Part shown: positions 26,173 through 43,414 of the stretch, piece after piece
How the letters are laid out: each line of letters starts with the position of its first letter
How positions within the stretch are numbered: position 1 is the first letter of the stretch
NCBI GenBank assembly: GCA_046566325.1
Contig: JBKHWX010000236.1
Location: 1 to 47,286 of the forward strand
Reading direction: 5' to 3'
From: Actinomycetes bacterium
GTDB lineage: Bacteria; Actinomycetota; Actinomycetes; Actinomycetales; BWSM-131
Length of the DNA stretch: 47,286 bases
Notes under the pieces: model-generated
Seen by the model: the letters and a program-made list of their open reading frames with translations, nothing else
What the model was told of the DNA's origin: nothing
Database searches by the model: none
Translations under genes and position numbers: made by a program

Positions 26173-26367
26173 ACCGGCCCCCGCGGCTCCCGGCCCGGTG
26201 GCGACCGCACCCTTCCCGTCCTGGCCTGCCGCTCCACTCGACAACCACTATGTTGACTGCCAGTCGCATTCAGTTGTGACACTGGTGGGTGAGCCGAGGA
26301 AGCCGGTGCCAGAGGCACGCCGGGACGACGGGGGTAAGGCGCGTGCACCAATACCAGGACCGGGCGC

Positions 26368-26817
26368 ATGCCTGAGTCAGGAAGCCCGTTCGACTTCGGC
26401 CGCTACGGGGAGCCCGGCGAACCGAATCCTCACGTCGCCCGTTCGCCGTTCTCCGAGCCGACGCAGGACCGGACCTCGGGCTTCTGGTCCACCGCCGACC
26501 AGGCGCCCGCGGCGGTATCCGTCGGCAGGCCGCCCCTCCTCTGGGTCGCGCTGGGACTCGCGACCGCAGTGGTCGGGACGGTGGTGGCGGCCGTCTGGGG
26601 CCGCATGCTGCCGCTCGCCCTGCTGGGGTGGCTGTTCGCCGGCCCGACCGCGATCGGGCTCCTGGCCCTCTTCACCGCACGGGACACGGCGCAGCGCGCG
26701 CGTCCCGTCTACGCAAGCCCCACGTGGGTGTCGCTCGCCTACTGGGCATCGCTCGCCGTCGCCCTGCTCGGCCTGCTGCTCGCCGCGTACCACATCGCGG
26801 ATGTGGTGGCGCGGTGA
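26368..26817 (+). CDS. Small membrane protein, first gene of the tubulin/vWA/GTPase operon. Cytoplasmic N-tail with an SPFDF motif, followed by ~3 TM helices.
   Basis: MPESGSPFDFGRYGEPGEP..., then hydrophobic stretches LLWVALGLATAVVGTVVAAVW, LPLALLGWLFAGPTAIGLLALF and WVSLAYWASLAVALLGLLLAAY. I do not recognise a family. Confidence 0.6.
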   Translation: MPESGSPFDFGRYGEPGEPNPHVARSPFSEPTQDRTSGFWSTADQAPAAVSVGRPPLLWVALGLATAVVGTVVAAVWGRMLPLALLGWLFAGPTAIGLLALFTARDTAQRARPVYASPTWVSLAYWASLAVALLGLLLAAYHIADVVAR

Positions 26818-29543
26818 CCGCGCCTGCTCGCCGAGCTGGGATCGGGCTGCTGACGGTGGCGCTCGCCGTCCTGCTGGCGGTCCCCGGGCTGTCCCTCGAG
26901 CCGGCACTGTCTGTCGAAGCGGTGGACCCGGCTCCGGCGGCCGGCGGCACGCAGACGGACCTCACGCCGGTCCAGCGGTACGGGTCGTGCCTGACGGGGC
27001 ACGGCGAGGGTGACCTCCTCCTGCTGATGGACGAGTCGGGCAGTCTCAAGGACACCGACCCCCACGCCGCCCGGGTCGCCGCGGCCCGCTACCTGCTCGA
27101 ACGGCTCGCTCGCCTGGCCGCGCGGTCGGGCACGACCATCAACGTCGGCATCGCGGGCTTCAGCGACAGCTTCGCGTCCTCGGTCAGCTGGCAGGCGCTC
27201 GACCCCACCTCCCTGCCCACGATCTCCGAGCAGGTGGACGAGTACCGCAACAGGAACGGGGGGAACGACACCGACTACTGGTGGGCGCTGGAGGGCTCCC
27301 GCCGAGAGCTCGCCAAGCAGGCCCACGGAGCGGTGGACCGCTGCCAGGCCATCGCGTGGTTCTCGGACGGGAAGCTCGACGTCGCAGTACCCAGGACGCC
27401 GTGGGGGCGAGCCCACTTCCCCGCCGAGAAGCCGTACGCCGCCGGGGTCGACCTGAGCGCTCCGAACGCGAAACAAGCCGTCACCGAGGCAGCGACCCAG
27501 GCCCTCTGCGAGAAGGGAGGGCTCGCCGACCAGCTGCGGAAGTCGGGGATCCTCGTGTTCGGGGTCGGGCTGGCTCCCGACGCCGCGAGCGACGCCGACT
27601 TCGACCTCATGCAGTCGCTCACCACCGGTACCGACCAGGCCGGCGGCTCCTGCGGGGCGGTCACGAGCCCGCCGCCCGGCGTGTTCTCCCTCGCCCGCGA
27701 CCTCGACGACATGCTGTGGGCCTTCGACGAGCTCGCGGGCTCCGGCCGGACGACGACCGGCGACGTCCACCCGTTCGTCGTCGACTCCTCGATCAGCGCC
27801 GTCCACGTGCTCGGCTCGTCGGGCGTCGAGAACGTCGAGGCCGAGCTGACCCTGCCGTCGGGTCGTGTCGTGTCCCTCGCCCGCACTCCCGACGGCGCCG
27901 GTCGCACCCTCGACCTGGACGGGGTGCACGCCACGTACAGCTGGAAGACCGCACACACGGTCGAGATGGACCTCGCGCGTCCGGACGCCGGCGTGAGCAC
28001 ATGGACGGGCGTCTGGCAGCTTCGGTTCGTCGACCCGGCAGCCGGCTCCGCGGACCCGTCGTCCCGGTCCCGCATCGAGATCAGCGGCGACCTGCAGCCG
28101 AGCTGGTCCGCAGCCGGTACCACCACCCTCCACTCGGGACAGGTGCTCTCCGGCATCAGGTTCGGGCTGGTGAACGGAGCCGGGACGGAGGTGGACCCGT
28201 CGACCGTTCCCGGCGCCGTCACGCTCAGCGCCGTCCTGCTCGACCCGAGCGGCGACGAGGTCGCCGTGACGCCGGGCCAGGAGAAGCCGCAGATCGGGAC
28301 GCCGGTCGACCTCGACCTGACGCACGTGGAGCCCGGGAGGGCAACCCTGCGGCTGACGCTGCTCATGACGACGGCGGACGCCGTGGCACCGGACGGCACC
28401 CCGACACCCGGGACGACGCTCCAGCCCAAGTCCGTCAGTCTCCCCGTCGAGGTGAGGCCGCCCCTCAACTACCCCTCCGTCGCGCCGGTCCTGGACTTCG
28501 GCCTCAACACCGGGCCGGTCCGCAAGCAGCTGCAGCTGAAGGTGTCGGGCCCCGGCTGCGTCTGGTTCGCCGACCTCTCGAAGCCGACGTTCACCACGAC
28601 GCCGGACGGCGTCGGAGGCCTGACCCTGACCTCCGCGGGCTCCCCGTCGAACCCCGCCGGGTGCCTCGAGGTCGCCGACGGGGAGAGCCGAAACCTGCCG
28701 GTCACCCTCAGCACGAAGGAGGGTGGCAACGGCGACGTCAACGGCTCCGTCACGGTGATGGCGGCACCGCTCGGTGAGGTCGAGCAGGCCATCCCGGTCG
28801 AGGTGACGGTCAAGGCCACGCTCGTCAAGCCGCTCAAGCAGATCGTCTACTGGCCCGTCTTCGTCGCCACGTTCCTGCTGGGGGTCGGCATCCCCCTCGG
28901 GATCGCCTACGCCCTGAAGCTCGCCGGCGCGAGGATTCCGCCGAGGCCGCTGTCCTCGCGACGGATCCGCGTCACCGTCGACGGCGGGAGAGTCCTGCGC
29001 GACGGCCGGCCCCTGAGCCTTCGGGACGACGACTTCGTGACCCTGGTGCCCCTCGACCAGGGCGGGAGCCGGCGTCTGAGCGTCGACGGCGTGGAGCTGC
29101 GGACCACCGCGGGCCTCTCGCCGTTCGGCCCCGCCCACGTCGTGGTCTCGGCTCCCGGCCTGCTCGTCGGGTCGAGCGAACCCGTGGGAACCAGGCGCCG
29201 AGGCCCGGAGGGAGAGACAACGCTGCCGCTCGCCGTCCACAACACCTGGGTTCTGCTGCACGACCGGAAGGGCCCCGCGGACGAGGCGGACCTGCTGCTG
29301 CTGGTGTCGGCCGACACCTCGCCGACCCAGCGCGAGGACCTGCTCGAGAGTGCGCGCGGACGCGTCCCGGCCGTCCTCGACGACCTGCGGCGCCGGGCGG
29401 ACGGCGCGGGTACGGGACGACCCGGAGACGACGACGGGACGCCGCCCCCATCCCCGTTCCGGCCGCAGACGCAGACGCGGCCGCCCGCGCCCCAGGCGTC
29501 GTCCCCGTTCGACTTCCCCGACCTCACTGGAGAGGGCCGATGA
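26814..29543 (+). CDS. Bitopic vWA-domain protein: signal/anchor sequence, extracytoplasmic vWA with complete MIDAS, beta-rich domains, one TM helix, and a ~200-aa cytoplasmic tail
   Basis: GTG at 26814 overlaps the upstream stop (GTGA). N-terminus is RRAGIGLLTVALAVLLAVPG. MIDAS motif DESGS at 27030-27044, then NDTDY and FSDG. TM helix IVYWPVFVATFLLGVGIPLGIAYAL at about 28840-28925. C-terminus is ...SSPFDFPDLTGEGR. Confidence 0.8.
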   Translation: MTAPARRAGIGLLTVALAVLLAVPGLSLEPALSVEAVDPAPAAGGTQTDLTPVQRYGSCLTGHGEGDLLLLMDESGSLKDTDPHAARVAAARYLLERLARLAARSGTTINVGIAGFSDSFASSVSWQALDPTSLPTISEQVDEYRNRNGGNDTDYWWALEGSRRELAKQAHGAVDRCQAIAWFSDGKLDVAVPRTPWGRAHFPAEKPYAAGVDLSAPNAKQAVTEAATQALCEKGGLADQLRKSGILVFGVGLAPDAASDADFDLMQSLTTGTDQAGGSCGAVTSPPPGVFSLARDLDDMLWAFDELAGSGRTTTGDVHPFVVDSSISAVHVLGSSGVENVEAELTLPSGRVVSLARTPDGAGRTLDLDGVHATYSWKTAHTVEMDLARPDAGVSTWTGVWQLRFVDPAAGSADPSSRSRIEISGDLQPSWSAAGTTTLHSGQVLSGIRFGLVNGAGTEVDPSTVPGAVTLSAVLLDPSGDEVAVTPGQEKPQIGTPVDLDLTHVEPGRATLRLTLLMTTADAVAPDGTPTPGTTLQPKSVSLPVEVRPPLNYPSVAPVLDFGLNTGPVRKQLQLKVSGPGCVWFADLSKPTFTTTPDGVGGLTLTSAGSPSNPAGCLEVADGESRNLPVTLSTKEGGNGDVNGSVTVMAAPLGEVEQAIPVEVTVKATLVKPLKQIVYWPVFVATFLLGVGIPLGIAYALKLAGARIPPRPLSSRRIRVTVDGGRVLRDGRPLSLRDDDFVTLVPLDQGGSRRLSVDGVELRTTAGLSPFGPAHVVVSAPGLLVGSSEPVGTRRRGPEGETTLPLAVHNTWVLLHDRKGPADEADLLLLVSADTSPTQREDLLESARGRVPAVLDDLRRRADGAGTGRPGDDDGTPPPSPFRPQTQTRPPAPQASSPFDFPDLTGEGR

Positions 29544-29592
29544 GCCGCACCGCACGGACAGACCGGCGTGCCCAGAGGAAGGAATCTTCGTC

Positions 29593-32500
29593 ATGAGGCG
29601 CTTTCTCGTCGTCGGCTGCGGCGGGTCGGGCGGGGCGACCCTCGCCTATCTCATGGACCAGCTCCGCTCGGACCTCGCCTCGCACGGCGTCGGCTCTCTG
29701 CCGCCTGGCTGGCAGTTCGTCCACATCGACGTCCCGACCGGGTCCGAGCCCGGCCCCGAGGGCCTGTCCAACGTGCAGCAACAAGGGGGCACGTACGTGC
29801 CCACGGGCCCGAACGTCCCGTCCTACAAGGTGCTCGACACCGCCGTGAGCAACACGCTCCGCAGCAAGAACGCGCTCGCCGAGATCGCCACGTGGGCGCC
29901 GAGGGACCCCGACCAGGTGAGCGTGCCGATCGCGGACGGCGCGGGCCAGTACCGGGCGCTCGGGCGGATGATCACGCTCGGCCGGGCCGGCGACGTCCGC
30001 CGAGCACTGACGGCAGCGTGGCAGCGCCTCAACACGGTGGAGACCATCTCGGAGATGGGCCGGCTGCAGAGGGTGCCCGGCCTGGGATCGTTCGACCCTC
30101 AGAACCCGGCGGTGGTCCTGGTCGTCTCGTCGATGGCCGGGGGTGCGGGCGCGTCGATGGCCTTGGACGTCTGCCGCCTCCTCACCCTCGTCGACGGGGT
30201 CGACCCCGGCCGGATAGCGGTGTTCATGGCCAGCCCCGACATCTTCGACGCGCTGCCCGCGGCCGCTCGCAGCGGCGTCCGCGCGAACGCGCTCGCGATG
30301 CTCGGCGAGATCATCGCCGCCCAGAGCGGCTCGGCCCGCGGGCACGACGCGACCGTGATGTCCGCGCTCGGGCAGGGCGGGGGGCAGGGGACCCGGGTCC
30401 CGTTCGCGCGCGTGTTCCCCGTCGGGCGGTTCATCGGCGCCGAGAAGGCACTGTTCGGCGACGGGTCGCAGATGGCCGTCTACCGGGGGCTCGGACGCGC
30501 TCTCGCGGGACTGATGACCAGTGGACAGGCGACCCAGGACTTCGTCGCGTTCGACCTCACCAACGGTGTCGGCCTCAAGAACGAGTCGCGGTACCTGAAC
30601 TGGGGCGTCCAGAACCACCTCGAGGCGCAGTGGGGGTCGTTCGGCTTCGCCAGCCTCAGCATGGGGCGAGACCGCTACGCGGAGTACGCGGCCCAGCGCC
30701 TCGCCCGCAGCACCGTCGACCACCTGCTGAAGGCCCACACGGACCCGGGCAGCACCGCCAGCGAGGCCGAACAGGTGCGCGCTCTCGTCGAGAGCCACTG
30801 GGGGAACGCGTGCCGCCTGCTGGGCCTGCCGGTCGAGACGGCGACCGGCGCCCACGGCAGACCGCAGATGGGGCCCTGGCTGGTCGACGTCGCATTTCCC
30901 AGGGCCACCGCGGAGGAGGCCGCGCGCTCCGTCGTCCGCGAGCACCTGTCGCGACACATCCCTTCGCCCAACGGGATCCACGCCGCCCAGTGGACCCCTG
31001 CCCTCCGCAACCAGCTGGCGCTCCGTCGCTCCGCGGTGCTGACCGCCAGCAACACCGCTGCCTACGCCTGGGCCCACGCCTGGCAGCACGAGCTGCTCCG
31101 CCGGCTCGTCGCGGTCGCGGACGAGGCCGTCACGGCGATGGGCCTGCGCTACGCCGTCACGCTGCTCGGCACCCTTGCCGAGCACGTCCGAGACGTCGTG
31201 ATCCCCGGCGCTGCCGAGCTTGCGCTGCAAGGCCCGGTCGACGTGGTGGCGTTGCCCCCCGAGGTCGAGAACCTGCTCGCCGGGCTGAGGGGGGTGATCA
31301 GCAACGGCCAGCACCTGGTCGACCGGCTCACGGATGGCGTCACGAGGAACGTCCGGGACCAGATCTGGTCACGGGCCGCGCACCTCGTGCAGGGCGTCCT
31401 GGGCTCGTTCCTCGCGGACGTCGTCCAGCCGTTGGAGCAGGCGCTCCGCTCCCCGCTGCTGTCCCTCGAGCAGGAGGTGGCGGCGCCGGTGACCGACCTT
31501 GGGCTGGCGCGGCTGGCCGTCGACCAGTACGGGGCGTGGCCGTCGGACGACGACGCCCTCGTGGCGGCCCGCTTCACCCATGCCAACAACGAGGTCCTGC
31601 TCACGAGCTCAGCGGACTTCCAGCCGCGGTACACGGTGGACATCCAGGCCTCCGCATCCCGGCAGCCGGCGGAGTCCACCACGTTCCCGGACGCGCGGAA
31701 CCGCGCCGTCCGGATGGTCGTCTCCGGCCACTGGCCGACGGTGGGCGGCGCCAAGGAGCCGGGGTCTGCCGTACAGCTGCTGTCGGGATGGAACGCCCCC
31801 GTCTTCGTCACCGCACCCGCCAGCGGCGAGACCCTCGTTCACAGCCGCGCACGTTTCGCCGTCTCCCTCTCGCCCCGCGAGATCCTCGGACGCGCCCGCC
31901 AGTTCGTCGCTCGCCCCGGTGAGTCGTTCTCCACCTTCTGCGAGCTCTCGCTCCGCGACTACATCGCAGGGGGCGACGTCTCGGAACCGGCGCAGGCGCA
32001 GCGCATGGCCGAGGTCGTGGGCAAGTTCCAGCAGGCCCTCAGCCTCGCCCGACCGCTGATCAGCGCCGACCAGACGGCGGTCGAGATGGTCCACGGGGAA
32101 GGGCTGAGCTACCAGTACAAGTTCTCCGAGATCCCCTTCGAGGGGCTGCCAGTGGCCGGCAGCGTGGAGAAGAACCTGTCGGCTCCACTGATCGACCCGA
32201 CGACGAGCACACGGTTCCGGGCCGCGCTGTCCATCGACGACCAGATCAAGCGCATCGACGTCTTCGGGTCCTACCCGAAGTACTCACCGCTCGTGTTCGA
32301 CGCGGTCCTCCAGCCGGTGATCGACCAGTGGAACTCCACGGACGGCAACGGGCACGCGCTCTTCTGGCGGTGGCGCAGGTCGCGGCCGCTGCCCGCGTCC
32401 CTGCCGATGGCGGACAGCGAGCGCCGCGCCATGGTCGCGGGCTGGTTCGTCGGCCAGGTCGTCGGCAGCATCCAGATTCCCGCCCCGCCCTACACGTCAC

Positions 32501-35789: not shown

Positions 35790-35851
35790 GCGGATGTCGG
35801 CACGGACGTGCCGAGAGACCAGACCGGCCGGCGACACGGGAAGCGCGAGCG

Positions 35852-36535: not shown

Positions 36536-38382
36536 CTCCGCCGCCGAGCCCGCCTCCGCCGCGGACCGGCTCCACGGCCGGGGCCTCACGACGCTCCGCG
36601 GAAGGGCCGCCGCCGGCTGGCGCACCGCCGTCGGACGAGGTGCCGGCCGAGATCCGGAACACCGCGCCCGAGCCGGCGGACGGGCCGTCCCGCGACCCTT
36701 CGCTGCCCGGTCTCGAGGAGTTCGCCGCGTACGACTTCTCGAGCCCCGACGCCCCTCCCCCGGGACAGCTGCGGGCGTCCGTACGGGAGGAGCAGGTATC
36801 GCTCAGCTGGAAGCCGTACGAGACCGACCAGAGCACCGTTCTCTACCGCGTCGTGTCGAGCGACGAGTTCGAGCCGTACGCGCCGGAGAAGGCCGCGCCG
36901 GTCACCGGCCCCACGACCGGGCTGCGGGCTGTGGACGTCCGCCCTCTGACATCGGCCGTGCGGTTCTACCAGGTGTGGGCGAACGCGGGCAGCGACGTCG
37001 CGGACGCCGTCGAGCAGCAGCCGGTCCTGCATGCCCGGCAGCTGCTCGTCAGCCCGGTGCGCCACCTCGAGCTCCGGGAGGACTCCGGGCGTGTCATCGG
37101 GCAGTGGTCGGTGTTCCCCGGCACCAGCCGCGTGCACGTGTACCGCATCCCGATCGAGAAGGCCGCGACCGGCGGCCTCGACCCCTCGCACCGGATCCTG
37201 CACTTGGAACCGAACCTCGGAGGCTTCGTCGACGGCGACGCGCAGCGCGGGCGTCGGTACGTCTACCAGGTCGCCGCCGAGGCCGTGGTGGACGGCGTGA
37301 CGCTGCTGTCGGCTCCCGTGAGCCAGGACGTGCTCGTGTCCACCGTCCTCGAGCAGGTCCAGGACCTGGACTTCACCTTCCGCGGCGACGCGGACGACGC
37401 CTCGTTCGACCTGACGTGGAGGACGCCGCGTGGGGGACGCGTCGTCGTCTACCGGACGACGACACCGCCGCGCGCGGGGGCGACCGCAGCCTCGATGCCC
37501 GAGCCGGCCCTCGAGCAGGCCTCCCTGGCGTCCGCCGACCGGCTTGCGCACCCGATCAGCGCCCTCGAGGGCGGCCGATCCGTGATGCGTGACGTGCCGT
37601 GGCCCGCGAGCTGGCATCGCGCGTTCTTCACGCCCGTCACGCTCCTCGACGGTCAGGCGCGGGTGGGCAGGACACGGACCGCGGCTCGCAGCGCGCCCGT
37701 CCGCGACGTTCGCATCGTCGAGAGAGTGCAGCAGCAGGTCGTCACCTTCGCGTGGCCCCAGGGTGCCGACGCCGTCCAGGCCTACATCGGGGCGAAGGAC
37801 CAGACCTCTGCTGCAGCGATGAGCGCGCGACCGGTGGAGATCTCGAAGGCGCGCTACGAACAGCTGGGCGGCCTGACCTTCTCCGCACCGCTGCCCCGGC
37901 ACGGGTGCTCGCTGCACCTCGTCTCGGTGACGTTCGAGGGTGGCTCGAAGATCACCGGCGACCCGACGTCGGTCGAGTACCCCGGACTGGTCGAGCTGCG
38001 CTACGACGTCGCGGACAGGCGGAACTTCCTCGGCGCCCCGGTGGCGCTGGCTGTGTCGATCACCTCGGCCGAGCCCCTGGACGTCTGTCCCCCGTTCGTC
38101 CTGGTCCACCGTCAGGACCGGCTGCCCCTCGACGTCCGGGACGGCGTGGCCCTGCAGGTTCAGCGGGAGGACGACCCCGAGAAGCGACGCACGAGCCGGT
38201 TCACACCGACGACGCTCGGCCCGCAGACGGCAGGCGTGGCCTGGCGGGCAGAGGTCAAGGGCCTCACCGGGTTCGTCCGGCTGTTCGTCGACATCGACCC
38301 CGAGCACCTGACGAAAGTCGCCCTGCTCGACCCGGACGTCGGCAAGCTCGTCCTCGGCTCCCGCTCGAGGTTCCAGCTGTGA
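36223..38382 (+). CDS. Protein with FN3/Ig-like beta-sandwich repeats (frame 1). The true start, or the junction with the 35852 segment, lies at about 36500-36640.
   Basis: This is the maximal ORF in the track, and its first ~90-130 codons look non-coding. After that come repeated modules: LRASVREEQVSLSWKPYETDQSTVLYRVV, VRHLELREDSGRVIGQWSVFPGTSRVHVYRI, VQDLDFTFRGDADDASFDLTWRTPRGGRVVVYRT and VRDVRIVERVQQQVVTFAWPQG. No signal peptide. Confidence 0.6.
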   Translation: MAEEGSGPQRPALQRPEGLQAACDRPQPRPLGRGGRPPAAPVQEQAGTRDRPSAVRVHARLRPAEPRDAGEAGLLPVDRTVFAVRTGFAAQRGSAAQPASPSSPPPPPSPPPPRTGSTAGASRRSAEGPPPAGAPPSDEVPAEIRNTAPEPADGPSRDPSLPGLEEFAAYDFSSPDAPPPGQLRASVREEQVSLSWKPYETDQSTVLYRVVSSDEFEPYAPEKAAPVTGPTTGLRAVDVRPLTSAVRFYQVWANAGSDVADAVEQQPVLHARQLLVSPVRHLELREDSGRVIGQWSVFPGTSRVHVYRIPIEKAATGGLDPSHRILHLEPNLGGFVDGDAQRGRRYVYQVAAEAVVDGVTLLSAPVSQDVLVSTVLEQVQDLDFTFRGDADDASFDLTWRTPRGGRVVVYRTTTPPRAGATAASMPEPALEQASLASADRLAHPISALEGGRSVMRDVPWPASWHRAFFTPVTLLDGQARVGRTRTAARSAPVRDVRIVERVQQQVVTFAWPQGADAVQAYIGAKDQTSAAAMSARPVEISKARYEQLGGLTFSAPLPRHGCSLHLVSVTFEGGSKITGDPTSVEYPGLVELRYDVADRRNFLGAPVALAVSITSAEPLDVCPPFVLVHRQDRLPLDVRDGVALQVQREDDPEKRRTSRFTPTTLGPQTAGVAWRAEVKGLTGFVRLFVDIDPEHLTKVALLDPDVGKLVLGSRSRFQL

Positions 38383-41159
38383 GTCCCGGGCCGAGCGACG
38401 CCAGCAGGTTCCCGCAGCTCACCTACACCTCCTTCGACCGCGGCGACGGCCAGGGAGGGTGGCAGGTGAAGGACACGGTCGGCGACCTCGACGGCGCCGA
38501 GGAGACCTACCTCCTGCGGCACGTCAACACGCACGCGCAGACGCTGGGAGCACTGCCGCAGTTCCCCTCTCCGGAGGAGATCAGTGCTCGCTGTCGAACC
38601 CTCGTCTACCGCAACGACCGCGCCGGCTCCGCTGCCTACTGGCACAGCATCCCTGCCGGGCACGACGCGGCCGGCCGGCCGGGCAACGTCTTCATCCACG
38701 CGCTCGTCGACCGCCACCCGGAGGAACCCTTTCCGCCGCTTCGGCCGGTCGAGCTGTGGCGGTCCCCCTTCTGGCTGGTTCCTTTCGGCGGCCCCGAGGT
38801 CCAGCAGGCGACCCTGTCGCCCGAGGTCCCGGCTCCGGGCCACGTGGTCGACCGCGACCGGGTCGTGGAGTTCCTGCTGGACCCCACGGCGTTCAGGCTC
38901 CCCGTCCTCGCGGTACTGCTCGACGCCGTCCGCGCCAGGCTGGACGACGCCGAGCGACCAGGACCACCGGTGGTCCTGGTCGTCCCCAGCGCCGACGAGG
39001 GGGCTCTCTGGCTCGGGGCGGTGTCACAGCTGACGTCCCCGGGGACTGCCCGGCACCTCGGCTTCACCATCGGGGAGCCGCTCGACCGTCTCGTCGCGGA
39101 CCCCGAGCGTCGCGGCGACCTCAACGCCGTGCTCGACAGCGACGGGAGGACGGAGAGCAGCGTCCCGGACCTCCTCCTGGTCGACGTGACCCGTCCGGTG
39201 ACGCTCGGCGAGCTCGACGGAGCCCCGCACCTGACGGCGCAGGGGTCGGCGGTGCCGGTCACCGAGTGGTCGGTGCTGGCGGCGGAGGTCCTGCAGGACC
39301 CGGACGTCGCGAGCAGCCTGCTGGCGTCGCTCGAGGACATGGCTCTGCGCCTGGGCGACCATGACCTCGCCCCGGCACTCCCGCTCGCCCTCACGGTGGC
39401 CGCGACGCCGGAGACGTGGCCGGACGCCGGCGACGAAGCGGTGCGTGTGCTCCACCGCTCGGCGCCGAGCAGGCTGCTCGAGCGGGAGGATCTCGCGGAG
39501 ACGGTCGCGCAGCTGCTGCGCCACACCCTGGGGACGACCGCGGCCAGCGCGTGGGACACGGTGCGGCCGTCCGTGGCCGTTCGGCCCCCCTCGCTGCTGC
39601 TCGGGCTGGCGCTCGGCCTCTACGCCGAACGAGTCCTGCGGGACGAGCACTGGCTCGCGCGGCGGGGGGGAGTACCGCCCGAGGGCCGCGTGCAGGTCGC
39701 GGACCGCGAGCGGGCGCGCCTTGCCGGCGAGCTCAGCGTCGTCCTCCAGCGCCTCGACGAGCTGGCACGAGAACCCGACCGCGCGGGTGAGGGGACGCTG
39801 TTCGACGCGCTGGTCGCGGTCAGGGCCATCGACTTCGCAGACCGCAGCGACCTGTTCGCCGAGGCCGCCCCCACCGTCCGCGAGGATGCCGAGCTCCTGG
39901 TCCAGCGCCTCGTCCTGCCCATGCTGCTCGACCCGCACGCCGGCGATGCCCTCGTCGGCTCGTGCGGAGCGGTCGCCGAGGCCACCCTGGCCGCCTTCTT
40001 CCGCCCCCTCATGTCCCTCGAGCTGCACGGAAGGTCGCCTGGGCATGGGCCCTCGCCCCAGGTGCTCGACTGGTTGTTCCCCTCGGCGCCCGCCTTCCCC
40101 AGCGCGGCGGAGATGGCCCAGTCGTCCGACCTCCCCGACCCGCTCCTGCTGGAGCTAGCGGTCTCGCTGGTCCGCCGCGGACGATCCCTCGCGCAGGGGC
40201 CCGGGGGAACGCCCGAGCAGGACGTCCGGCCGTTCGCGCTCTGGGGGCTGCTCACCACGCACCCCGAGGAGCCGCCCGCGGCTGACGTGGCCGCCTGCTT
40301 CTCCGGTCCGCCGTGGGAGCCGGCGGCGCTCCGGGTGACCCTCGAACACCTCGGACCACGACTGCGGCCCGGCCAGCTGCTGCAGACGGTCCTGGCGGCG
40401 CCGCGAAGCGAGGACCTCAAGGCGTTGTGCGACCTCATCCTGTCCGCACCACCGGGCGAGCGGCTCCCGGCTCCGGGGGCACGGCCGGACGACGCCCGGC
40501 TGCTCGGCGACGCATCGGCGCTTCGGCTGCGGAGCGCGGCGCGGTGGTGGACGCGCTACAACCCCGCGGAGCAGGCTCAGCAGCTGCTGGACCAGTACCT
40601 GGCCCTCGACCGCCGGGGTCTCGGCGCGTTGCTCGCGGCGGATGCCCAGGTGTCGGTGATCGTCGCCCTGGCGCTGAGGGCGATCGTCGCACCGTTCCGG
40701 ACGAGCGTCCCGCGGGGCGAGACGCTCCTCGCGTGGCACCGCGAGGAGCAAGGGGTCCGTGCGGCGGCAGAGCGGCTCGCGTACGCGGTGAGCCGTCGGT
40801 CGAACCTCGATGCCGCGCTGGCGGCGGCCGCACTCGCCACCGACCGCGCCGCGCCGCGGAACGACCTGCGAGAAGCGCCCGTGGTGCGGGCGCTGGCCCC
40901 TCTCGCAGGCGGCTCACGGTCGTTCTTCGGGGAGGCGTTCTCGATCCGCACCTCCTCGATTCCCGAGTCTCGGGACGCCGTCGAACGCGACGTGCTGCTG
41001 CCCGCCGTCACGTCCGCGCTCCAGCGGCTGTTGCAGCTTCGAAACTCGGCCGGCGAGATGGACGAGTTGGAGAAGTTCGCGAAGTCCTGGTGCAAGGAGA
41101 ACGCCGCACCGTCCGGAGGAGGTCTTCATGGCGCGCTCAGCCGTCTGCGGCGGTCCTGA
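38379..41159 (+). CDS. 926-aa GAP1-like (GTPase-associated protein 1-like) protein with a mostly helical C-terminal region
   Basis: GTG at 38379 overlaps the upstream stop (GTGA). N-terminus is FPQLTYTSFDRGDGQGGWQVKDTVG...GRPGNVFIHALV. The family assignment is from memory of the N-terminal motif only. Confidence 0.5.
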   Translation: MSPGPSDASRFPQLTYTSFDRGDGQGGWQVKDTVGDLDGAEETYLLRHVNTHAQTLGALPQFPSPEEISARCRTLVYRNDRAGSAAYWHSIPAGHDAAGRPGNVFIHALVDRHPEEPFPPLRPVELWRSPFWLVPFGGPEVQQATLSPEVPAPGHVVDRDRVVEFLLDPTAFRLPVLAVLLDAVRARLDDAERPGPPVVLVVPSADEGALWLGAVSQLTSPGTARHLGFTIGEPLDRLVADPERRGDLNAVLDSDGRTESSVPDLLLVDVTRPVTLGELDGAPHLTAQGSAVPVTEWSVLAAEVLQDPDVASSLLASLEDMALRLGDHDLAPALPLALTVAATPETWPDAGDEAVRVLHRSAPSRLLEREDLAETVAQLLRHTLGTTAASAWDTVRPSVAVRPPSLLLGLALGLYAERVLRDEHWLARRGGVPPEGRVQVADRERARLAGELSVVLQRLDELAREPDRAGEGTLFDALVAVRAIDFADRSDLFAEAAPTVREDAELLVQRLVLPMLLDPHAGDALVGSCGAVAEATLAAFFRPLMSLELHGRSPGHGPSPQVLDWLFPSAPAFPSAAEMAQSSDLPDPLLLELAVSLVRRGRSLAQGPGGTPEQDVRPFALWGLLTTHPEEPPAADVAACFSGPPWEPAALRVTLEHLGPRLRPGQLLQTVLAAPRSEDLKALCDLILSAPPGERLPAPGARPDDARLLGDASALRLRSAARWWTRYNPAEQAQQLLDQYLALDRRGLGALLAADAQVSVIVALALRAIVAPFRTSVPRGETLLAWHREEQGVRAAAERLAYAVSRRSNLDAALAAAALATDRAAPRNDLREAPVVRALAPLAGGSRSFFGEAFSIRTSSIPESRDAVERDVLLPAVTSALQRLLQLRNSAGEMDELEKFAKSWCKENAAPSGGGLHGALSRLRRS

Positions 41160-41222
41160 CCCTGTCAGTCGAGGACCTGTCGGCCGCCGGACGACGGCGC
41201 TCGGGAGCGGGGAGATGCGCTG

Positions 41223-42269
41223 ATGCCCGTCTACATCCTCGAGGGCTCGGCAAGCGCCCTGCTCGGTCACGGCACCGTGACGGTCTCGCTGGCAGCTCCC
41301 GGCATCGTCGACACACCGCGGCTCGACGTCGTCGGAGAGGGTGCCGACACGACGAGAGCGATCGCACCGCGGCCCGGGCTTCTGGTCCTGCCGTCGCTGC
41401 GAGAGCACGTTCTGCTGCGTGTCTCCCCGCCCTCGAGGGAGCGTGCGCACGGCGTGCACGTCTTCCCGGACGGGACGGTCGTCACGATCTCGCTGAGCAC
41501 GGGACGGGACGGCGACCCGGCCGCGGACAGGGCCGTCCTGAACCACGTCGACGTCTCCGGCCTGCCCTACAAGGACCTCGTGTCCGTCACCCCCACCCGC
41601 GACGGTGTCGTGGTCGCGGCGCTCGAGGCCGTGGCCGAGGACCCGCTGCCCCCCCTGGCGTCGGCGGCACGGATGGTGGCCCGGTCGATCCTGGGCGTCG
41701 AGCGCGTGCCCGAAGACTCGGCCGTCGAGGTTCTGGTCGCCGTGGACACGTCGGCCTCGATCCAGCCCTGCCGCGCGGACGGCAGCCTGGAGTCGGCGCT
41801 GGAGGTGCTGACCGGCGTCAGCCAGGTCATGAGCCGTGAGCGGTCGGTGCGGCTGGCACTGTTCGGCAGCCGTCCGACGCTCTTCCCCGTCGTGCCACCC
41901 GCGGAGGTGCCTGCGTCGCTCCTCGACTCGCTCCAGCCCGCGCCGACGAGCTACGGGCTGCAGGGCCAGCTTCCCGAGCTGCCGGGGGCGGGCCGCTGCA
42001 TCACCTACCTGCTGACGAACGGTCCGGTGAGCGCGACACCGTCCGGGTCCGCGACCCGGAAGGTGCACCCCGTCGTCCTGGCGCCTCGCTCCGCCTGGCC
42101 GCTGCTGGCGAGGCCGGACGCCGCCGCGTCGTTCGTCCCGGTCCCGGACCGGGGCGAGGAGGCTCGCGGCCTCGTCGCGGAGCCGCACACCCTGCACCCG
42201 CTGGTCGGCTCGCTCCTCAGGAGCTGCGTGCCCGCGGGGTCCCCTCTCGCCGAAAGGCTCTCCAGATGA
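41223..42269 (+). CDS. Cytoplasmic vWA-like protein (348 aa) with a DxSxS MIDAS motif
   Basis: EVLVAVDTSASIQPCRADGSLESALEVL. DTSAS lies at 41745-41759. The later LLTNG replaces the usual xxDG. No signal peptide or TM segment. Confidence 0.55.
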   Translation: MPVYILEGSASALLGHGTVTVSLAAPGIVDTPRLDVVGEGADTTRAIAPRPGLLVLPSLREHVLLRVSPPSRERAHGVHVFPDGTVVTISLSTGRDGDPAADRAVLNHVDVSGLPYKDLVSVTPTRDGVVVAALEAVAEDPLPPLASAARMVARSILGVERVPEDSAVEVLVAVDTSASIQPCRADGSLESALEVLTGVSQVMSRERSVRLALFGSRPTLFPVVPPAEVPASLLDSLQPAPTSYGLQGQLPELPGAGRCITYLLTNGPVSATPSGSATRKVHPVVLAPRSAWPLLARPDAAASFVPVPDRGEEARGLVAEPHTLHPLVGSLLRSCVPAGSPLAERLSR

Positions 42270-43414
42270 GCAAGTGCCCGCACTGCTTCCGCGCCCTTCC
42301 GCCGGACCGGTACGTCTTCGCCTGCCGTTCGGGCAAGTGCACCCCGAACCACGACGCGGAGGCCAGCGCTTTCCACGGCGCGTCGATCTCGACGCCGCCG
42401 CTGCGCGTCCTGACCGCTCCGGAGAACGCGCGGAGAGGTTGGACGCCCGGTCAGTCGGTCCACTGCGCGGCGTGCGGGGGGCCCACGTACGAGGCGTGCC
42501 CGTGGTGCCACTACTGGCTCCTCGAGGGGTGGCGGCACGCGGAGGTGACGTGCCTGGCGATGGCCGGAGCCCGGGCGACGGGCAAGAGCTTCTACATCGC
42601 CGTCGCCGTGAAGCAGCTCGAGAGGCTGGCGGAGCAGATGAACGTCGCGCTCCAGCCGGCGACGCAGCAGACCCAGCGCAGCTACACGGAGCGCTACGAG
42701 AAGCCTCTGTACGAGGACAGGGGGATCATCCCGCCGACACCGCCCGCCACGACGGCGGACTCCTACCAGCGGCACCCGTTGATCTTCAGCCTGGGCATGC
42801 GCGACGGGCGGCGGACGTACCTCGTGCTGCGCGACGTCGCGGGTGAGGACCTCGAGAACCACAGCACCGACGCCTTCCACCTGCAGTTCTTCGCACACGC
42901 GTCGGCGGTGGTCTTCCTGTTCGACCCCCTGTGGGTCCCCGAGGTCTACGGGCAGCTCCAGGGGCTGCTGCCGCACCAGCTCTTCCGGGGCGGCGACCCG
43001 CGGAAGGTGCTCGCGAACGTCCTGCGGCTCATCGACTCCGGGCGTCCCAGGCTCGCTGTCACGATCTCCAAGTTCGATGCGCTCCAGGCCCTTCGCAGGG
43101 TGGAGGGCACGGACTGGAGCCGGGTCATGTCGAACGCAGGGGCCGCCTTCCAGCGCGATCCCGGGCTCGCTCCCGAGTACGACTACCGGGACGGAGAGCT
43201 CCTGCACCACGAGGTGCGCAGCCTGCTCCAGCGACTCCATGCCGGCGCCGTCGTTGCGGCCGTGGAGAACCCGCACACCGGCGAGCCGCTGGCGCACCGG
43301 TTCTTCGCCGTCTCCGCCCTCGGGGAGTCGGCGGAAGGCGAGAGGCTGCACGACCGCGGCATCTCCCCGTTCCGGTGCCTGGATCCCATCCGTTGGGCGA
43401 TGCAGATGTCCTGA
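42266..43414 (+). CDS. Double zinc-ribbon plus P-loop (TRAFAC-type) GTPase
   Basis: ATG overlaps the upstream stop (ATGA). Zinc-ribbon cysteines: CPHC...CRSGKC and CAAC...CPWC. G1 motif GARATGKS (42566-42589), G3 motif LRDVAGE, G4-like motif ISKFD. Confidence 0.8.
   Translation: MSKCPHCFRALPPDRYVFACRSGKCTPNHDAEASAFHGASISTPPLRVLTAPENARRGWTPGQSVHCAACGGPTYEACPWCHYWLLEGWRHAEVTCLAMAGARATGKSFYIAVAVKQLERLAEQMNVALQPATQQTQRSYTERYEKPLYEDRGIIPPTPPATTADSYQRHPLIFSLGMRDGRRTYLVLRDVAGEDLENHSTDAFHLQFFAHASAVVFLFDPLWVPEVYGQLQGLLPHQLFRGGDPRKVLANVLRLIDSGRPRLAVTISKFDALQALRRVEGTDWSRVMSNAGAAFQRDPGLAPEYDYRDGELLHHEVRSLLQRLHAGAVVAAVENPHTGEPLAHRFFAVSALGESAEGERLHDRGISPFRCLDPIRWAMQMS

What the first reader, a model, noticed from the sequence alone, without database searches (positions are those of the whole stretch)
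26368..43414. Eight-gene, translationally coupled tubulin-like / dual-vWA / Zn-ribbon-GTPase operon: candidate uncharacterised NTPase-driven sensing or conflict system
**Seen in the sequence.** Eight co-directional genes run with no intervening opposite-strand gene:
1. Small membrane protein (26368).
2. Bitopic vWA protein with an extracytoplasmic MIDAS motif (26814).
3. 1177-aa tubulin/FtsZ-like protein (29593).
4. 887-aa TM-hairpin protein (33126).
5. FN3-like repeat protein (35852/36223-38382).
6. GAP1-like 926-aa protein (38379).
7. Cytoplasmic vWA-like protein (41223).
8. Double-Zn-ribbon P-loop GTPase (42266).

Four junctions are start/stop overlaps: GTGA at 26814, TGATG at 33126, GTGA at 38379 and ATGA at 42266. 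The other gaps are only 50-64 nt. This implies stoichiometric co-expression. A 196-nt upstream intergenic region contains a locally AT-richer patch with TTGACT at 26253-26258, which may be a promoter.

**Established knowledge.**
- vWA/MIDAS domains mediate metal-dependent protein-ligand capture.
- Tubulin/FtsZ folds polymerise in a GTP-dependent way.
- TRAFAC GTPases act as switches.
- From memory, GTPase + GAP1 + vWA combinations were predicted computationally as 'GTPase-centric' conflict systems (Kaur, Burroughs, Iyer and Aravind, 2020). I know of no experimental characterisation.

**Inference.** An envelope-exposed vWA receptor is wired to a cytoplasmic polymer-forming GTPase and a switch GTPase. 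The function could be anti-phage or abortive containment, or an envelope/developmental checkpoint.
Basis: partly seen in the sequence, partly recalled or inferred. Interest (0 to 1): 0.9.

Follow-up and report, generated by a model that had tools for sequence, protein, structure and literature searches.

The report
Actinobacterial tubulin-like GTPase membrane operon
This is a real, tightly packed eight-gene operon, but comparative-genomics papers in 2010 and 2020 had already described its type; what is added here is that three of its genes match the mycobacterial "Sae" genes linked by name to ESX-1 secretion, and its function is still untested.

Summary
**Observation.** The eight co-directional genes, their start/stop overlaps and most domain calls are confirmed.

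**Gene 5.** It is frameshifted in this contig. The N-terminal domain reads in one frame (35852 to about 36496). The FN3 repeats read in another (about 36655 to 38382).

**Identity.** The locus is a textbook member of the [quoted passage not shown] of Kaur et al. 2020. It also fits the FtsZl1-vWA-GTPase operons of Makarova & Koonin 2010.

**Conservation.**
- The same gene order recurs in 28 other loci from Mycobacteriaceae, Nocardiaceae, Propionibacteriales and Microbacteriaceae.
- Gene trees follow taxonomy.
- Flanks are housekeeping genes.
- There are no PADLOC hits and no variable effector.

These points weaken the "conflict system" reading.

- Gene 5 is the orthologue of SaeA, named "ESX-1 scaffolding and assembly protein".
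- Four mycobacterial loci carry a reduced three-gene form: SaeA, GAP1 and the GTPase.
- Gene 4 belongs to a large family (963 representative clusters) with a confident predicted structure that has no structural neighbour.

**Verdict.** This is a new member of a known, experimentally uncharacterised kind, of moderate interest. The most likely function is a GTP-gated, membrane-anchored assembly machine. An immune role is not excluded.

The parts
26368..26817 (+). g1: small membrane protein of 149 aa with three hydrophobic segments (about 58-76, 83-101 and 121-147). No family assignment.
   Evidence: The ORF is intact with GC3 0.89. The hydropathy scan shows the three segments. Orthologues of 123-191 aa sit directly upstream of the vWA gene in 9 loci that reach that far. 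The stop overlaps the g2 start (GTGA).
26814..29543 (+). g2: bitopic envelope protein. It has a signal/anchor at 10-28 and an extracytoplasmic vWA domain (about 60-300) with MIDAS residues D73-x-S75-x-S77, T153/D154 and D185. A beta-rich region of about 380 aa follows, then a TM at 682-700 and a cytoplasmic tail of about 210 aa.
   Evidence: Pfam VWA and VWA_2 match below threshold, E about 2e-4. A family profile hits solved vWA domains: PTMP1 at 1.4e-5, complement C2 and TRAP. The MIDAS residues are invariant in 9 orthologues. [quoted passage not shown]
29593..33126 (+). g3: FtsZl1/Tubulin_2-family GTPase domain (residues 5-375) followed by a C-terminal region of about 800 aa that is mostly alpha-helical.
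   Evidence: Pfam PF13809 matches at E=6.3e-46. The loops GCGGSGG (8-14) and SMAGGAGAS (180-188) are invariant in 20-29 orthologues. Identity across orders is about 50%. A profile search against PDB sequences does not reach tubulin or FtsZ.
33126..35789 (+). g4: 887-aa membrane protein. It has an N-terminal alpha/beta domain, a long helical bundle carrying a TM hairpin (539-588), and a C-terminal mixed domain. The predicted fold has no known neighbour.
   Evidence: The AlphaFold2 model has pLDDT 87.5 and pTM 0.78. Foldseek finds no hit at E<=1e-3 in PDB or BFVD. The family has 963 representative clusters. There are only weak hairpin matches to DUF2207_C, DUF4231 and a holin family. The start overlaps the g3 stop in 28 of 28 loci within -1 to +5 nt.
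35852..36496 (+). g5 N-terminal part (frame 2): the SaeA first domain, seen as two HRDC-like repeats. It is followed by a Pro/Ser/Ala-rich linker in which the frame is lost.
   Evidence: GC3 is 0.83-1.0 in this frame up to about 36500. tblastn with five full-length SaeA orthologues aligns their residues ~8-184 (1-195 for one) here. The precomputed Pfam domain PF25831 (SaeA_1st) is present in orthologues. Pfam HRDC itself was not detected.
36497..36654 (+). Frameshift interval inside g5, from frame 2 to frame 1. It lies in a proline-codon direct repeat with a C5 run at 36521-36525.
   Evidence: locate it. In 27 of 28 other loci the SaeA frame opens within 48 nt of the g4 stop. The only other exception is also a MAG.
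36655..38382 (+). g5 C-terminal part (frame 1): five FN3-like domains of SaeA. NCBI annotated 36640-38382 as a 580-aa protein.
   Evidence: P0030 carries PF25832-PF25836, the Fn3_SaeA 2nd to 6th domains. Identity to 37 orthologues is 42-52%. One orthologue is named 'putative ESX-1 scaffolding and assembly protein SaeA'.
38379..41159 (+). g6: GAP1 protein (GTPase-associated protein 1) of the N2 type, 926 aa.
   Evidence: Pfam GAP1-N2 matches at 1.5e-19 and GAP1-M at 1.1e-6. Orthologues are present in 35 loci. The start overlaps the g5 stop by 4 nt in 20 of 35 loci.
41223..42269 (+). g7: 348-aa cytoplasmic protein with a beta-rich N-terminal half and a probable divergent vWA-like C-terminal half. 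D175-x-S177-x-S179 is invariant.
   Evidence: D175, S177 and S179 are invariant in 26 orthologues. Five of 26 orthologues weakly match Pfam vWA-TerF-like, and one homologue has a precomputed PF10138 hit. One UniRef entry is named 'VWA domain-containing protein'. Against this, hhalign versus the g2 vWA gives probability 2.6%, and the AF2 model failed with pLDDT 40.
42266..43414 (+). g8: DO-GTPase2-family TRAFAC GTPase with two N-terminal Zn ribbons (C4/C7/C20/C25 and C67/C70/C78/C81).
   Evidence: Pfam PF19993 scores 28.7 bits against a cut-off of 27. Motifs G1 GARATGKS, Walker B/G3 DVAGE, G4 SKFD and G5 SALG are invariant in 34 orthologues. C4, C7, C78 and C81 are invariant. The other four Cys are present in 22 of 34 and were lost together (12 of 34 orthologues).
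26173..26367 (+). 195-nt upstream intergenic spacer containing TTGACT (26253-26258) and the palindrome GACTGCCAGTC. It is a possible regulatory region, but this is unproven.
   Evidence: The sequence was read. No sigma-70-like promoter was found by the scan.

Best explanation
**What it is (shown).** The locus is a complete copy, apart from a frameshift in gene 5, of the conserved actinobacterial eight-gene FtsZl1/tubulin-type GAP1-N2 / DO-GTPase operon.

**How it most likely works (inferred).** It builds a GTP-gated, membrane-anchored assembly machine that is a stable, vertically inherited part of the cell envelope apparatus, not a diversifying immune system.

- *Envelope-facing module (g1-g4).* g2 exposes a metal-dependent vWA/MIDAS binding site outside the membrane and has a cytoplasmic tail of about 210 aa. 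g1 and g4 are membrane partners. g4 is always translationally coupled to the FtsZl1 protein g3, so it would tether g3 to the membrane.
- *Cytoplasmic switch/scaffold module (g5-g8).* This comprises SaeA (HRDC-like plus FN3), GAP1-N2, a vWA-like protein, and a catalytically intact Zn-ribbon TRAFAC GTPase. The GTPase cycle would license or dissolve the assembly.
- *Output.* The likely output is local organisation or remodelling of the membrane or envelope. In mycobacteria this is reflected in the naming of the reduced SaeA-GAP1-GTPase module as an ESX-1 'scaffolding and assembly' factor.

The composition, topology, motifs and conservation are shown here. The protein contacts, the polymerisation and the biological output are inferred.
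For: **Domain content.** One search gives the Pfam assignments. Searches give the motifs and topology.

**Match to published descriptions.** The architecture matches Kaur et al. and Makarova & Koonin.

**Conservation.**
- Gene order g2 to g8 is identical in 28 loci across four actinobacterial groups.
- The start/stop overlaps are conserved and pair g3 with g4, g5 with g6, and g7 with g8.
- NJ trees of g8 and g5 recover Mycobacteriaceae plus Rhodococcus, Propionibacteriales and Microbacteriaceae.
- Flanking genes are shared only within genera, which indicates a stable chromosomal position.
- The window's flanks are housekeeping genes.
- No component shows unusual variability. FN3 is 42-50% identical, tubulin about 50% and the GTPase 49-58%.
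- There are no PADLOC hits.

**SaeA link.**
- Gene 5 carries the SaeA family domains and name.
- The three-gene SaeA-GAP1-GTPase loci are nested within the eight-gene Mycobacteriales clade.
- MSMEG_0048 is a PNPOx-like gene, and a PNPOx gene lies downstream of these loci.
Against: - No experiment bears on this operon.
- The SaeA-ESX-1 link rests on database names plus my memory of Converse & Cox 2005 and Coros et al. 2008. I could not retrieve either paper. Those phenotypes came from transposon mutants and may be indirect.
- No T7SS genes are in the window or in the L027 flanks. The called genes of L001-L003 show only one weak WXG100_2 hit, in L002.
- From memory, M. tuberculosis runs ESX-1 without Sae proteins.
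- FtsZl1 lacks recognisable T6-H7/T7 elements, so filament formation is uncertain.
- Kaur et al. argue for a conflict role from a much larger survey.
- The g4 TM hairpin has weak holin and DUF4231 matches. Its top structural neighbours are pore-forming toxins, though the matches are not significant. This would suit a membrane-damaging effector.
- Vertical inheritance does not exclude immunity.
Confidence: 0.4

Rival explanations
1. It is a conflict or abortive-infection system, as Kaur et al. proposed. The FN3 and vWA modules sense an invader. GAP1 relays the signal to the DO-GTPase switch. The tubulin-like protein then multimerises as the effector, perhaps driving the g4 TM hairpin to damage the membrane and kill or arrest the infected cell.
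For: - The locus matches Kaur's class exactly. Kaur reports an association with multicellular actinobacteria and mutual exclusivity with VMAP ternary systems.
- The g4 hairpin gives weak Pfam matches to DUF4231 (SLATT clan by my recollection) in 4 of 29 members and to a holin family in 3 of 29.
- The top-ranked Foldseek hits for g4 are the alpha-pore-forming toxins SmhB and AhlB, but they are not significant.
- TerD/TerC stress genes flank the operon in two genomes.
Against: - There are no PADLOC hits.
- Neither defence nor mobile-element genes occur nearby in the window.
- The eight-gene architecture is invariant, with no swapped effectors, in 28 loci.
- The FN3 'sensor' is no more variable than the enzymes.
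- Gene trees follow taxonomy, and chromosomal position is stable within genera.
- All the structural and Pfam hints for a pore are below significance.
Confidence: 0.3
2. It is a dedicated accessory of type VII (ESX) secretion or conjugal DNA transfer. On this view the full operon is the ancestral form of the mycobacterial SaeABC module and positions or assembles ESX machines in the membrane.
For: - Orthologues of gene 5 are named 'ESX-1 scaffolding and assembly protein SaeA', and the Pfam SaeA domains are present.
- The reduced three-gene form in mycobacteria is derived from the eight-gene form.
- The locus is probably positionally orthologous to the M. smegmatis sae locus, shown by the shared downstream PNPOx gene.
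- From memory, saeA-C transposon mutants lose EsxB secretion and recipient conjugation activity.
Against: - No ESX genes lie in the window or the L027 flanks, and no ESX Pfam family appears among the called genes of L001-L003 apart from one weak WXG100_2 hit in L002.
- The operon occurs in Propionibacteriales and Microbacteriaceae, where an ESX-1-type system was not shown here.
- Which of g6, g7 and g8 correspond to SaeB and SaeC could not be established. No source uses those names.
- The primary papers were not retrievable.
Confidence: 0.15
3. In this particular organism the operon is decaying. The gene-5 frameshift would then be a genuine inactivating mutation and the system would be non-functional.
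For: The frameshift splits SaeA between 36497 and 36654. Orthologues are intact in 27 of 28 loci.
Against: - All seven other genes are intact, with coding-type GC3 and invariant catalytic motifs.
- The lesion sits in a C-rich proline-codon repeat with a C5 run, which is a classic site for assembly or sequencing indels.
- The only other locus with a gap before SaeA is also a MAG.
- The FN3 part could still be translated from the GTG at 36640 that NCBI annotated.
Confidence: 0.1

Closest known systems
Actinobacterial tubulin-containing GAP1-N2 / DO-GTPase 'GTPase-centric' system (Kaur, Burroughs, Iyer & Aravind, eLife 2020; PMC7159879)
   Same: All the features Kaur lists are present:
- a DO-GTPase with two N-terminal Zn ribbons and a Walker-B glutamate
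- GAP1 with N2 and M domains
- a single tubulin homologue with a C-terminal helical extension
- one cytoplasmic FN3-repeat protein with an HRDC-like N-terminus
- one membrane-bound FN3/beta-rich protein fused to an extracytoplasmic vWA domain
   Different: - Kaur's text does not mention three further invariant members documented here: the small 3-TM protein g1, the 887-aa TM-hairpin protein g4 and the vWA-like g7.
- The predicted hypervariability of the FN3 component is not seen among these orthologues.
- Kaur's text makes no link to SaeA or ESX.
FtsZl1 operons (Makarova & Koonin, Biol Direct 2010; PMC2875224); Pfam Tubulin_2 PF13809
   Same: The locus has an FtsZl1-type GTPase domain with a long helical C-terminal region. 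It is linked to a vWA protein with an intact MIDAS motif, a divergent P-loop GTPase with a Cys-rich N-terminus, and several membrane proteins.
   Different: - Neither OmpA-family nor protein-kinase genes are present here.
- That paper proposed membrane remodelling or vesicle biogenesis, also without experiments.
- The actinobacterial operon is far more uniform than the 'lineage-specific' contexts described there.
Mycobacterium smegmatis SaeA/SaeB/SaeC (MSMEG_0044-0046), 'putative ESX-1 scaffolding and assembly proteins'
   Same: - Gene 5 belongs to the SaeA family. It has Pfam SaeA_1st plus Fn3_SaeA 2nd to 6th domains, and source names use the SaeA label.
- Mycobacterial three-gene loci consist of SaeA, GAP1-N2 and DO-GTPase. 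They are the closest relatives of the mycobacterial eight-gene operons.
   Different: - The window has five extra genes: g1 to g4 and g7.
- No ESX genes are nearby.
- The M. smegmatis locus itself could not be fetched, so whether SaeB and SaeC are GAP1 and the GTPase is an inference.
- The reported phenotypes are recalled from memory, not read here.
Firmicute tubulin-type GAP1-N2 systems (Kaur et al. 2020)
   Same: They share the GAP1-N2, DO-GTPase and tubulin-homologue core and have two vWA proteins, one of them extracellular.
   Different: Firmicute versions have two tubulin genes with coiled-coil tails, a YtkA-fused vWA and a multi-TM vWA protein. None of these is present here.

Membership tests
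GAP1-N2-type DO-GTPase system, actinobacterial tubulin theme (Kaur et al. 2020) | TRAFAC-clade DO-GTPase with a conserved Walker-B glutamate and 1-2 N-terminal Zn ribbons | tested here: met
   PF19993 scores 28.7 bits against a cut-off of 27. GARATGKS, DVAGE (E194 in 34 of 34), SKFD and SALG are invariant. The window protein has eight Cys arranged as two ribbons, and four of them are invariant across the family.
GAP1-N2-type DO-GTPase system, actinobacterial tubulin theme (Kaur et al. 2020) | GAP1 protein with an N2-type N-terminal domain and an M domain, encoded next to the GTPase | tested here: met
   PF20013 matches at 1.5e-19 and PF20014 at 1.1e-6 in g6. g6 lies one gene upstream of g8. 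Kaur describes GAP1 as typically downstream of the GTPase, so the order differs here.
GAP1-N2-type DO-GTPase system, actinobacterial tubulin theme (Kaur et al. 2020) | FNIII-repeat protein, here fused to an HRDC-like domain | tested here: met
   P0030 carries Fn3_SaeA domains PF25832-36. The N-terminal SaeA_1st region is present in frame 2 and aligns to orthologues. Pfam HRDC itself was not detected, so the 'HRDC' label rests on Kaur et al.
GAP1-N2-type DO-GTPase system, actinobacterial tubulin theme (Kaur et al. 2020) | Single tubulin-superfamily gene with a C-terminal alpha-helical extension | tested here: met
   PF13809 matches at E=6.3e-46 over residues 5-375 of 1177. There is one copy per locus in all loci.
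GAP1-N2-type DO-GTPase system, actinobacterial tubulin theme (Kaur et al. 2020) | Membrane-bound protein with an extracytoplasmic vWA domain plus a beta-rich or FNIII region | tested here: met
   g2 has a signal/anchor at 10-28, a TM at 682-700 and a MIDAS motif DESGS. Its vWA profile hits solved vWA domains.
GAP1-N2-type DO-GTPase system, actinobacterial tubulin theme (Kaur et al. 2020) | Behaviour as a biological-conflict system: variable effectors, rapid evolution and defence-island context | tested here: not met
   The architecture is invariant. FN3 is 42-50% identical, similar to the enzymes. Trees follow taxonomy. Flanks are housekeeping genes. There are no PADLOC hits. This bears on the proposed function, not on homology-based membership.
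FtsZ/tubulin superfamily (functional sense: GTP-dependent filament former) | T1 and T4 nucleotide-binding loops | tested here: met
   GCGGSGG (8-14) and SMAGGAGAS (180-188) are invariant. The Pfam Tubulin_2 match supports this.
FtsZ/tubulin superfamily (functional sense: GTP-dependent filament former) | T7 loop/H7 and the C-terminal domain needed for longitudinal contacts and GTPase activation | tested here: inconclusive
   Makarova & Koonin could not identify these elements in FtsZl1. A profile of the N-terminal 420 aa finds neither tubulin nor FtsZ among PDB sequences.
vWA domain (g7) | Rossmann-like vWA fold with MIDAS (DxSxS...T...D) | tested here: inconclusive
   DxSxS is invariant, and a near-invariant D at 266 is replaced by N in the window protein. 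Five of 26 orthologues weakly hit vWA-TerF-like. hhalign versus the g2 vWA gives probability 2.6%. The AF2 model is unusable.
SaeABC module of mycobacteria | SaeA-family protein (SaeA_1st plus five Fn3_SaeA domains) | tested here: met
   The precomputed Pfam domains and the source names support this. In the window the protein is split by a frameshift.
SaeABC module of mycobacteria | Requirement for ESX-1 substrate secretion, or linkage to an ESX-1 locus | not testable with these tools
   No ESX genes are in the window or in the loci whose flanks were examined. The primary literature is not held. The M. smegmatis locus was not retrievable.
SLATT / holin-like pore-forming effector (g4) | Significant sequence or structural similarity of the 2-TM module | tested here: not met
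   The best Pfam E-values are 0.003 (DUF4231) and 0.002 (holin), in 4 and 3 of 29 members, and there is no hit for the window protein. The best Foldseek E-value is 0.03 with TM<=0.27.

The most novel reading that the evidence does not exclude
The eight-gene operon may be the ancestral, complete form of the mycobacterial SaeABC module. On this reading it is a bacterial tubulin-superfamily cytoskeletal system, switched by a Zn-ribbon GTPase. Its job would be to organise envelope-spanning secretion or conjugation sites, or other envelope nanomachines, rather than to provide immunity. The g4 family would then be a new-fold membrane tether for an FtsZ-like protein.
Probability: 0.2. Interest if true: 0.75.

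Novelty: new member of a known kind. Interest (0 to 1): 0.4.

Why it matters
**State of knowledge.** The class is known only from comparative genomics (2010 and 2020), and I found no biochemical or cell-biological study of it.

**Why the class is unusual.**
- It combines one of the most divergent branches of the FtsZ/tubulin superfamily with a private GTPase switch and an outward-facing vWA receptor.
- It is conserved as a rigid eight-gene unit across several actinobacterial orders, including Mycolicibacterium and Rhodococcus species that can be manipulated genetically.

**Three leads that make it more testable.**
1. The link to the saeA family suggests concrete phenotypes to score in existing mycobacterial models: Esx secretion and distributive conjugal transfer.
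2. Some mycobacteria carry a natural three-gene reduction next to eight-gene relatives. This defines a minimal core and a natural comparison.
3. g4 is a large family with a new predicted fold that is always translationally coupled to the tubulin-like gene. It is an obvious candidate membrane anchor or effector.

**Limits of this window.** For this particular contig the finding is ordinary. It is one more, slightly damaged, copy from an uncultured actinomycete.

Tried and rejected
**Database scans with no result.**
- PADLOC and NCBIfam scans of all nine ORFs gave nothing significant.
- Rfam and tRNA scans found only tRNA-Leu at 10292-10377, which is unrelated.

**Structure and profile work that did not help.**
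- The AlphaFold2 model of g7 from a three-sequence alignment failed (pLDDT 40), so it was not searched.
- A profile search of g7 against PDB sequences gave only spurious RNA polymerase omega matches.
- hhalign of g7 against the g2 vWA gave probability 2.6%.
- A profile of the g3 N-terminal domain against PDB sequences gave no tubulin or FtsZ hit.
- Foldseek of the g4 model against PDB and BFVD gave no significant hit.
- Pfam on the SaeA N-terminal region and on long SaeA homologues, including one named PspA/IM30, found neither HRDC nor PspA. One homologue carries DUF3710.

**Literature.**
- Several searches for SaeA/saeABC/MSMEG_0044-46 returned only irrelevant papers.
- Direct look-ups of Converse & Cox 2005 and Coros et al. 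2008 by DOI, PMID and guessed PMC id all failed.
- Searches for FtsZl1 follow-up work found no experimental study.

**Other attempts.**
- Looking up the exact g3 protein in the assembly index failed, probably because its annotated start differs.
- The first 18-sequence SaeA alignment was too divergent for the locus scan.
- I considered and rejected a programmed frameshift in gene 5, because orthologues are intact single ORFs.
- I looked for a ninth conserved gene or a conserved defence or ESX neighbour and found none beyond genus-level synteny.

Full report

The window is a complete 47,286-bp contig of a metagenome-assembled "Actinomycetes bacterium" (source names). Its G+C content is about 72%. 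In DNA this GC-rich, long spurious ORFs are common, so I used third-position GC to pick the coding frames.

The four start/stop overlaps are real: GTGA at 26814, TGATG at 33126, GTGA at 38379 and ATGA at 42266. The three short gaps of 49, 62 and 63 nt are also real.

Gene 5 is the exception. The frame starting at 35852 is coding only up to about 36500. The frame holding the FN3 repeats becomes coding only after about 36520-36650. Five full-length orthologues of 783-807 aa align with their N-terminal residues (~8-184; 1-195 for one) in the first frame and residues from ~225-246 to ~777-798 in the second. The break lies between 36497 and 36654, inside a proline-codon direct repeat with a C5 run. 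NCBI annotated only the 580-aa FN3 part (P0030).

In 27 of 28 other loci the SaeA frame opens within 48 nt of the upstream stop. The single exception is another MAG. I therefore read the frameshift as an assembly error or a very recent lesion, not as a programmed event.

No promoter-like or terminator-like site was found.

**2. What the eight proteins are.**

Pfam gives these matches:

| Gene | Pfam match | Score |
|---|---|---|
| g3 | Tubulin_2, residues 5-375 | E=6e-46 |
| g6 | GAP1-N2 | E=1.5e-19 |
| g6 | GAP1-M | E=1e-6 |
| g8 | DO-GTPase2 | 28.7 bits (cut-off 27) |
| g2 | VWA / VWA_2 | E about 2e-4, below threshold |

Alignments of orthologues taken from related loci add detail.

- **g8.** G1 (GARATGKS), Walker-B/G3 with the family's diagnostic glutamate (DVAGE), G4 (SKFD) and G5 (SALG) are invariant in 34 of 34 sequences. 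So g8 should be an active GTPase. The window protein has eight cysteines forming two Zn ribbons. Only C4, C7, C78 and C81 are invariant. The other four are missing together in 12 of the 34 orthologues.
- **g3.** The loops GCGGSGG and SMAGGAGAS (the tubulin signature loop) are invariant.
- **g2.** It has an N-terminal signal/anchor and a vWA domain with invariant MIDAS residues. A profile of that domain finds solved vWA domains, PTMP1 at 1.4e-5. A beta-rich region follows, then one TM at 682-700 and a cytoplasmic tail of about 210 aa.
- **g1.** It has three hydrophobic segments.
- **g4.** It has a TM hairpin at 539-588. Its AlphaFold2 model is confident (pLDDT 87.5, pTM 0.78). Foldseek finds nothing at E<=1e-3 in the PDB or BFVD. 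The highest-ranked hits are alpha-pore-forming toxins, but they are not significant. Weak Pfam matches to the hairpin (DUF2207_C, DUF4231, a holin family) appear in a minority of members and not in the window protein. A full HMMER scan finds 963 representative clusters, 421 of them at E<=1e-30. So g4 is a large family with no model in the Pfam copy searched and no structural neighbour.
- **g7.** D-x-S-x-S is invariant. Five of 26 orthologues weakly match vWA-TerF-like, one homologue has a precomputed hit to that family, and one UniRef entry is called a VWA protein. However, the profile-profile comparison with g2's vWA is not significant, and the structure prediction failed.

**3. Is the neighbourhood conserved?**

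Yes, strikingly. Homologues of g4 led to loci in Rathayibacter, Rhodococcus and Pseudoclavibacter with the same eight genes in the same order. A scan of species-representative genomes with a SaeA alignment returned 35 more loci.

tblastn with all window proteins shows g2-g3-g4-g5-g6-g7-g8 in the same order in every locus with enough flank (28 loci). The exceptions are four mycobacterial loci described below. g1 is found wherever the fetched DNA reaches far enough.

| Component | Identity to the window |
|---|---|
| GTPase (g8) | 49-58% |
| Tubulin-like (g3) | about 50% |
| FN3 part of g5 | 42-50% |
| vWA (g2) | about 40% |
| g4 | about 36% |
| GAP1 (g6) | about 34% |
| g7 | about 31% |

The tight junctions are conserved. 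This points to three coupled pairs: g3-g4, g5-g6 and g7-g8. The g1-g2 junction, a 4-nt overlap in the window, is also tight (-4 to +10 nt) in the 9 loci that reach it.

No other gene family recurs next to the operon beyond closely related genera. Within genera the flanks are syntenic. Lineage-specific neighbours include a PknH_C/DUF4190 membrane protein in Mycolicibacterium and an alpha/beta-hydrolase in Microlunatus.

In the window the neighbours are ordinary housekeeping and metabolic genes:
- PEP synthase and its regulator
- DUF6328
- a PEBP-family protein
- a YbaK-type tRNA-editing protein
- a sedolisin-type peptidase
- a glyoxalase
- an FAD monooxygenase

Neighbour-joining trees of g8 and of the FN3 part of g5 recover Mycobacteriaceae with Rhodococcus as outgroup, Propionibacteriales, and Microbacteriaceae. 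The window branches on its own.

**4. Comparison with what is known.**

Kaur, Burroughs, Iyer and Aravind (eLife 2020) define GTPase-centric systems built on a DO-GTPase and GAP1. Within the GAP1-N2 type they describe an actinobacterial tubulin theme with these parts:
- a single tubulin gene with a C-terminal helical domain
- one FNIII protein fused to HRDC
- one membrane-bound FNIII protein fused to vWA and a beta-rich domain
- a GTPase with two Zn ribbons

That is this locus. Makarova and Koonin (2010) had already described FtsZl1 genes linked to vWA proteins and a divergent GTPase, and proposed membrane remodelling. They also noted that FtsZl1 lacks recognisable T6-H7/T7 elements, so filament formation is uncertain. 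A 2023 survey treats Tubulin_2 proteins as a divergent outgroup. I found no experimental paper on either the DO-GTPase/GAP1 systems or FtsZl1.

**5. A link not made in those papers.**

Orthologues of gene 5 carry Pfam domains named SaeA_1st and Fn3_SaeA 2nd to 6th. Some are named "(putative) ESX-1 scaffolding and assembly protein SaeA" by their sources. Kaur et al. do not mention ESX, type VII secretion or M. smegmatis.

From memory only: saeA-C are MSMEG_0044-0046. Transposon mutants were reported to lose EsxB secretion (Converse & Cox 2005) and recipient activity in conjugal transfer (Coros et al. 2008). I could not retrieve these papers, so this point rests on database names and recollection.

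Four mycobacterial loci (L024, L027, L028, L029) contain only SaeA, a GAP1-N2 protein and the GTPase. These three genes are directly adjacent and flanked by metabolic genes. In both trees these loci form a clade inside Mycobacteriaceae, while the outgroups all carry eight genes. The three-gene form is therefore most simply a reduction of the eight-gene operon.

A PNPOx-family gene lies downstream of these loci and of the eight-gene locus of M. aquaticum. MSMEG_0048 is also a PNPOx-like F420 enzyme. This fits the M. smegmatis sae locus lying at the same chromosomal position, but it does not say which form M. smegmatis has. No source names the GAP1, g7 or GTPase orthologues SaeB or SaeC.

**6. 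How it most likely works.**

*Shown here:*
- an outward-facing MIDAS receptor with a cytoplasmic tail
- two further membrane proteins
- a cytoplasmic FtsZ-like GTPase always coupled to the hairpin protein g4
- a cytoplasmic set of SaeA, GAP1, a vWA-like protein and an intact switch GTPase
- rigid co-inheritance of all eight genes

*Inferred:* the first four proteins form a membrane platform that recruits or nucleates the FtsZl1 protein. The last four form a GTP-gated scaffold or switch that controls that assembly. The output is local organisation or remodelling of the membrane or envelope.

I favour a stable cell-envelope role (confidence 0.4) over immunity (0.3) for these reasons:
- The architecture has no variable effector.
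- The supposed FN3 sensor is as conserved as the enzymes.
- The genes track taxonomy and keep their chromosomal position within genera.
- The context is housekeeping.
- PADLOC is silent.
- The only genetic hint points to secretion.

The immunity model remains viable. It comes from a much broader survey, and the g4 hairpin could be a membrane-damaging effector. A narrow ESX-accessory role (0.15) is weakened because no ESX genes were seen in the window or in the locus flanks that were examined. The function is untested in any case.

**7. Verdict.**

The locus is a new member of a known, computationally described and experimentally uncharacterised kind.

Its value lies less in this damaged MAG copy than in three leads:
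- the SaeA connection
- the natural three-gene reduction
- the new-fold g4 family

Noticed in passing
window 36497-36654: Gene 5 (SaeA) is frameshifted inside a proline-codon direct repeat (AGCCCGCCTCCxCC, three copies) with a C5 run at 36521-36525. NCBI annotated only the downstream 580 aa. Orthologues are intact in 27 of 28 loci.
   Followed up: yes
L024, L027, L028, L029 (about 9.4-15.4 kb in each locus): Four mycobacterial genomes carry a three-gene form (SaeA, GAP1-N2, DO-GTPase) that lacks g1-g4 and g7. In gene trees it is nested within the eight-gene Mycobacteriales, so it appears to be a derived reduction.
   Followed up: yes
window 42266-43414 (g8) and its orthologues: Of the eight Zn-ribbon cysteines, only C4, C7, C78 and C81 are invariant (34 of 34). 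C20, C25, C67 and C70 are lost together in 12 of the 34 orthologues, which leaves those proteins a single possible four-Cys site.
   Followed up: partly
L001 20432-22727; L002 2394-2969: TerD and TerC tellurite-resistance/stress genes flank the operon in Rathayibacter and Rhodococcus. g7 weakly resembles the vWA-TerF-like family. This could be coincidence or a functional link to Ter systems.
   Followed up: no
window 33126-35789 (g4): g4 has a confident AlphaFold2 model (pLDDT 87.5) with no significant Foldseek neighbour in PDB or BFVD. The family has 963 representative clusters and no model in the Pfam copy searched.
   Followed up: partly
It may be an operator. Its conservation in other loci was not checked.
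   Followed up: no
L019 16232-17218 and the equivalent position in L021, L022, L032, L036: In Mycolicibacterium/Mycobacterium eight-gene loci a co-directional gene follows the GTPase, 28 nt downstream in four of the loci and overlapping it by about 12 nt in L022. In L019 (the only one scanned) it encodes a DUF4190 plus PknH_C (extracellular sensor domain) membrane protein; the genes at the same position in the other four loci cluster with it by BLASTP. It could be a lineage-specific ninth component.
   Followed up: partly
window 16545-18434 and 19090-20946 (- strand): Two paralogous neighbouring genes encode cNMP-binding + CBS + DUF294 nucleotidyltransferase proteins.
   Followed up: no
window 13900-15400 (+ strand), GC about 0.67: A lower-GC stretch encodes an amino-acid permease-like membrane protein. 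The high-GC3 ORFs on the opposite strand (14274-14627 and 14826-15476) look like antisense artefacts.
   Followed up: partly
P0068 (Granulicoccus, 937 aa) and P0087 (1007 aa): Some SaeA homologues are much longer. One is named 'PspA/IM30 family protein' by NCBI, but Pfam found no such domain. Another carries a DUF3710 domain at its N-terminus.
   Followed up: partly
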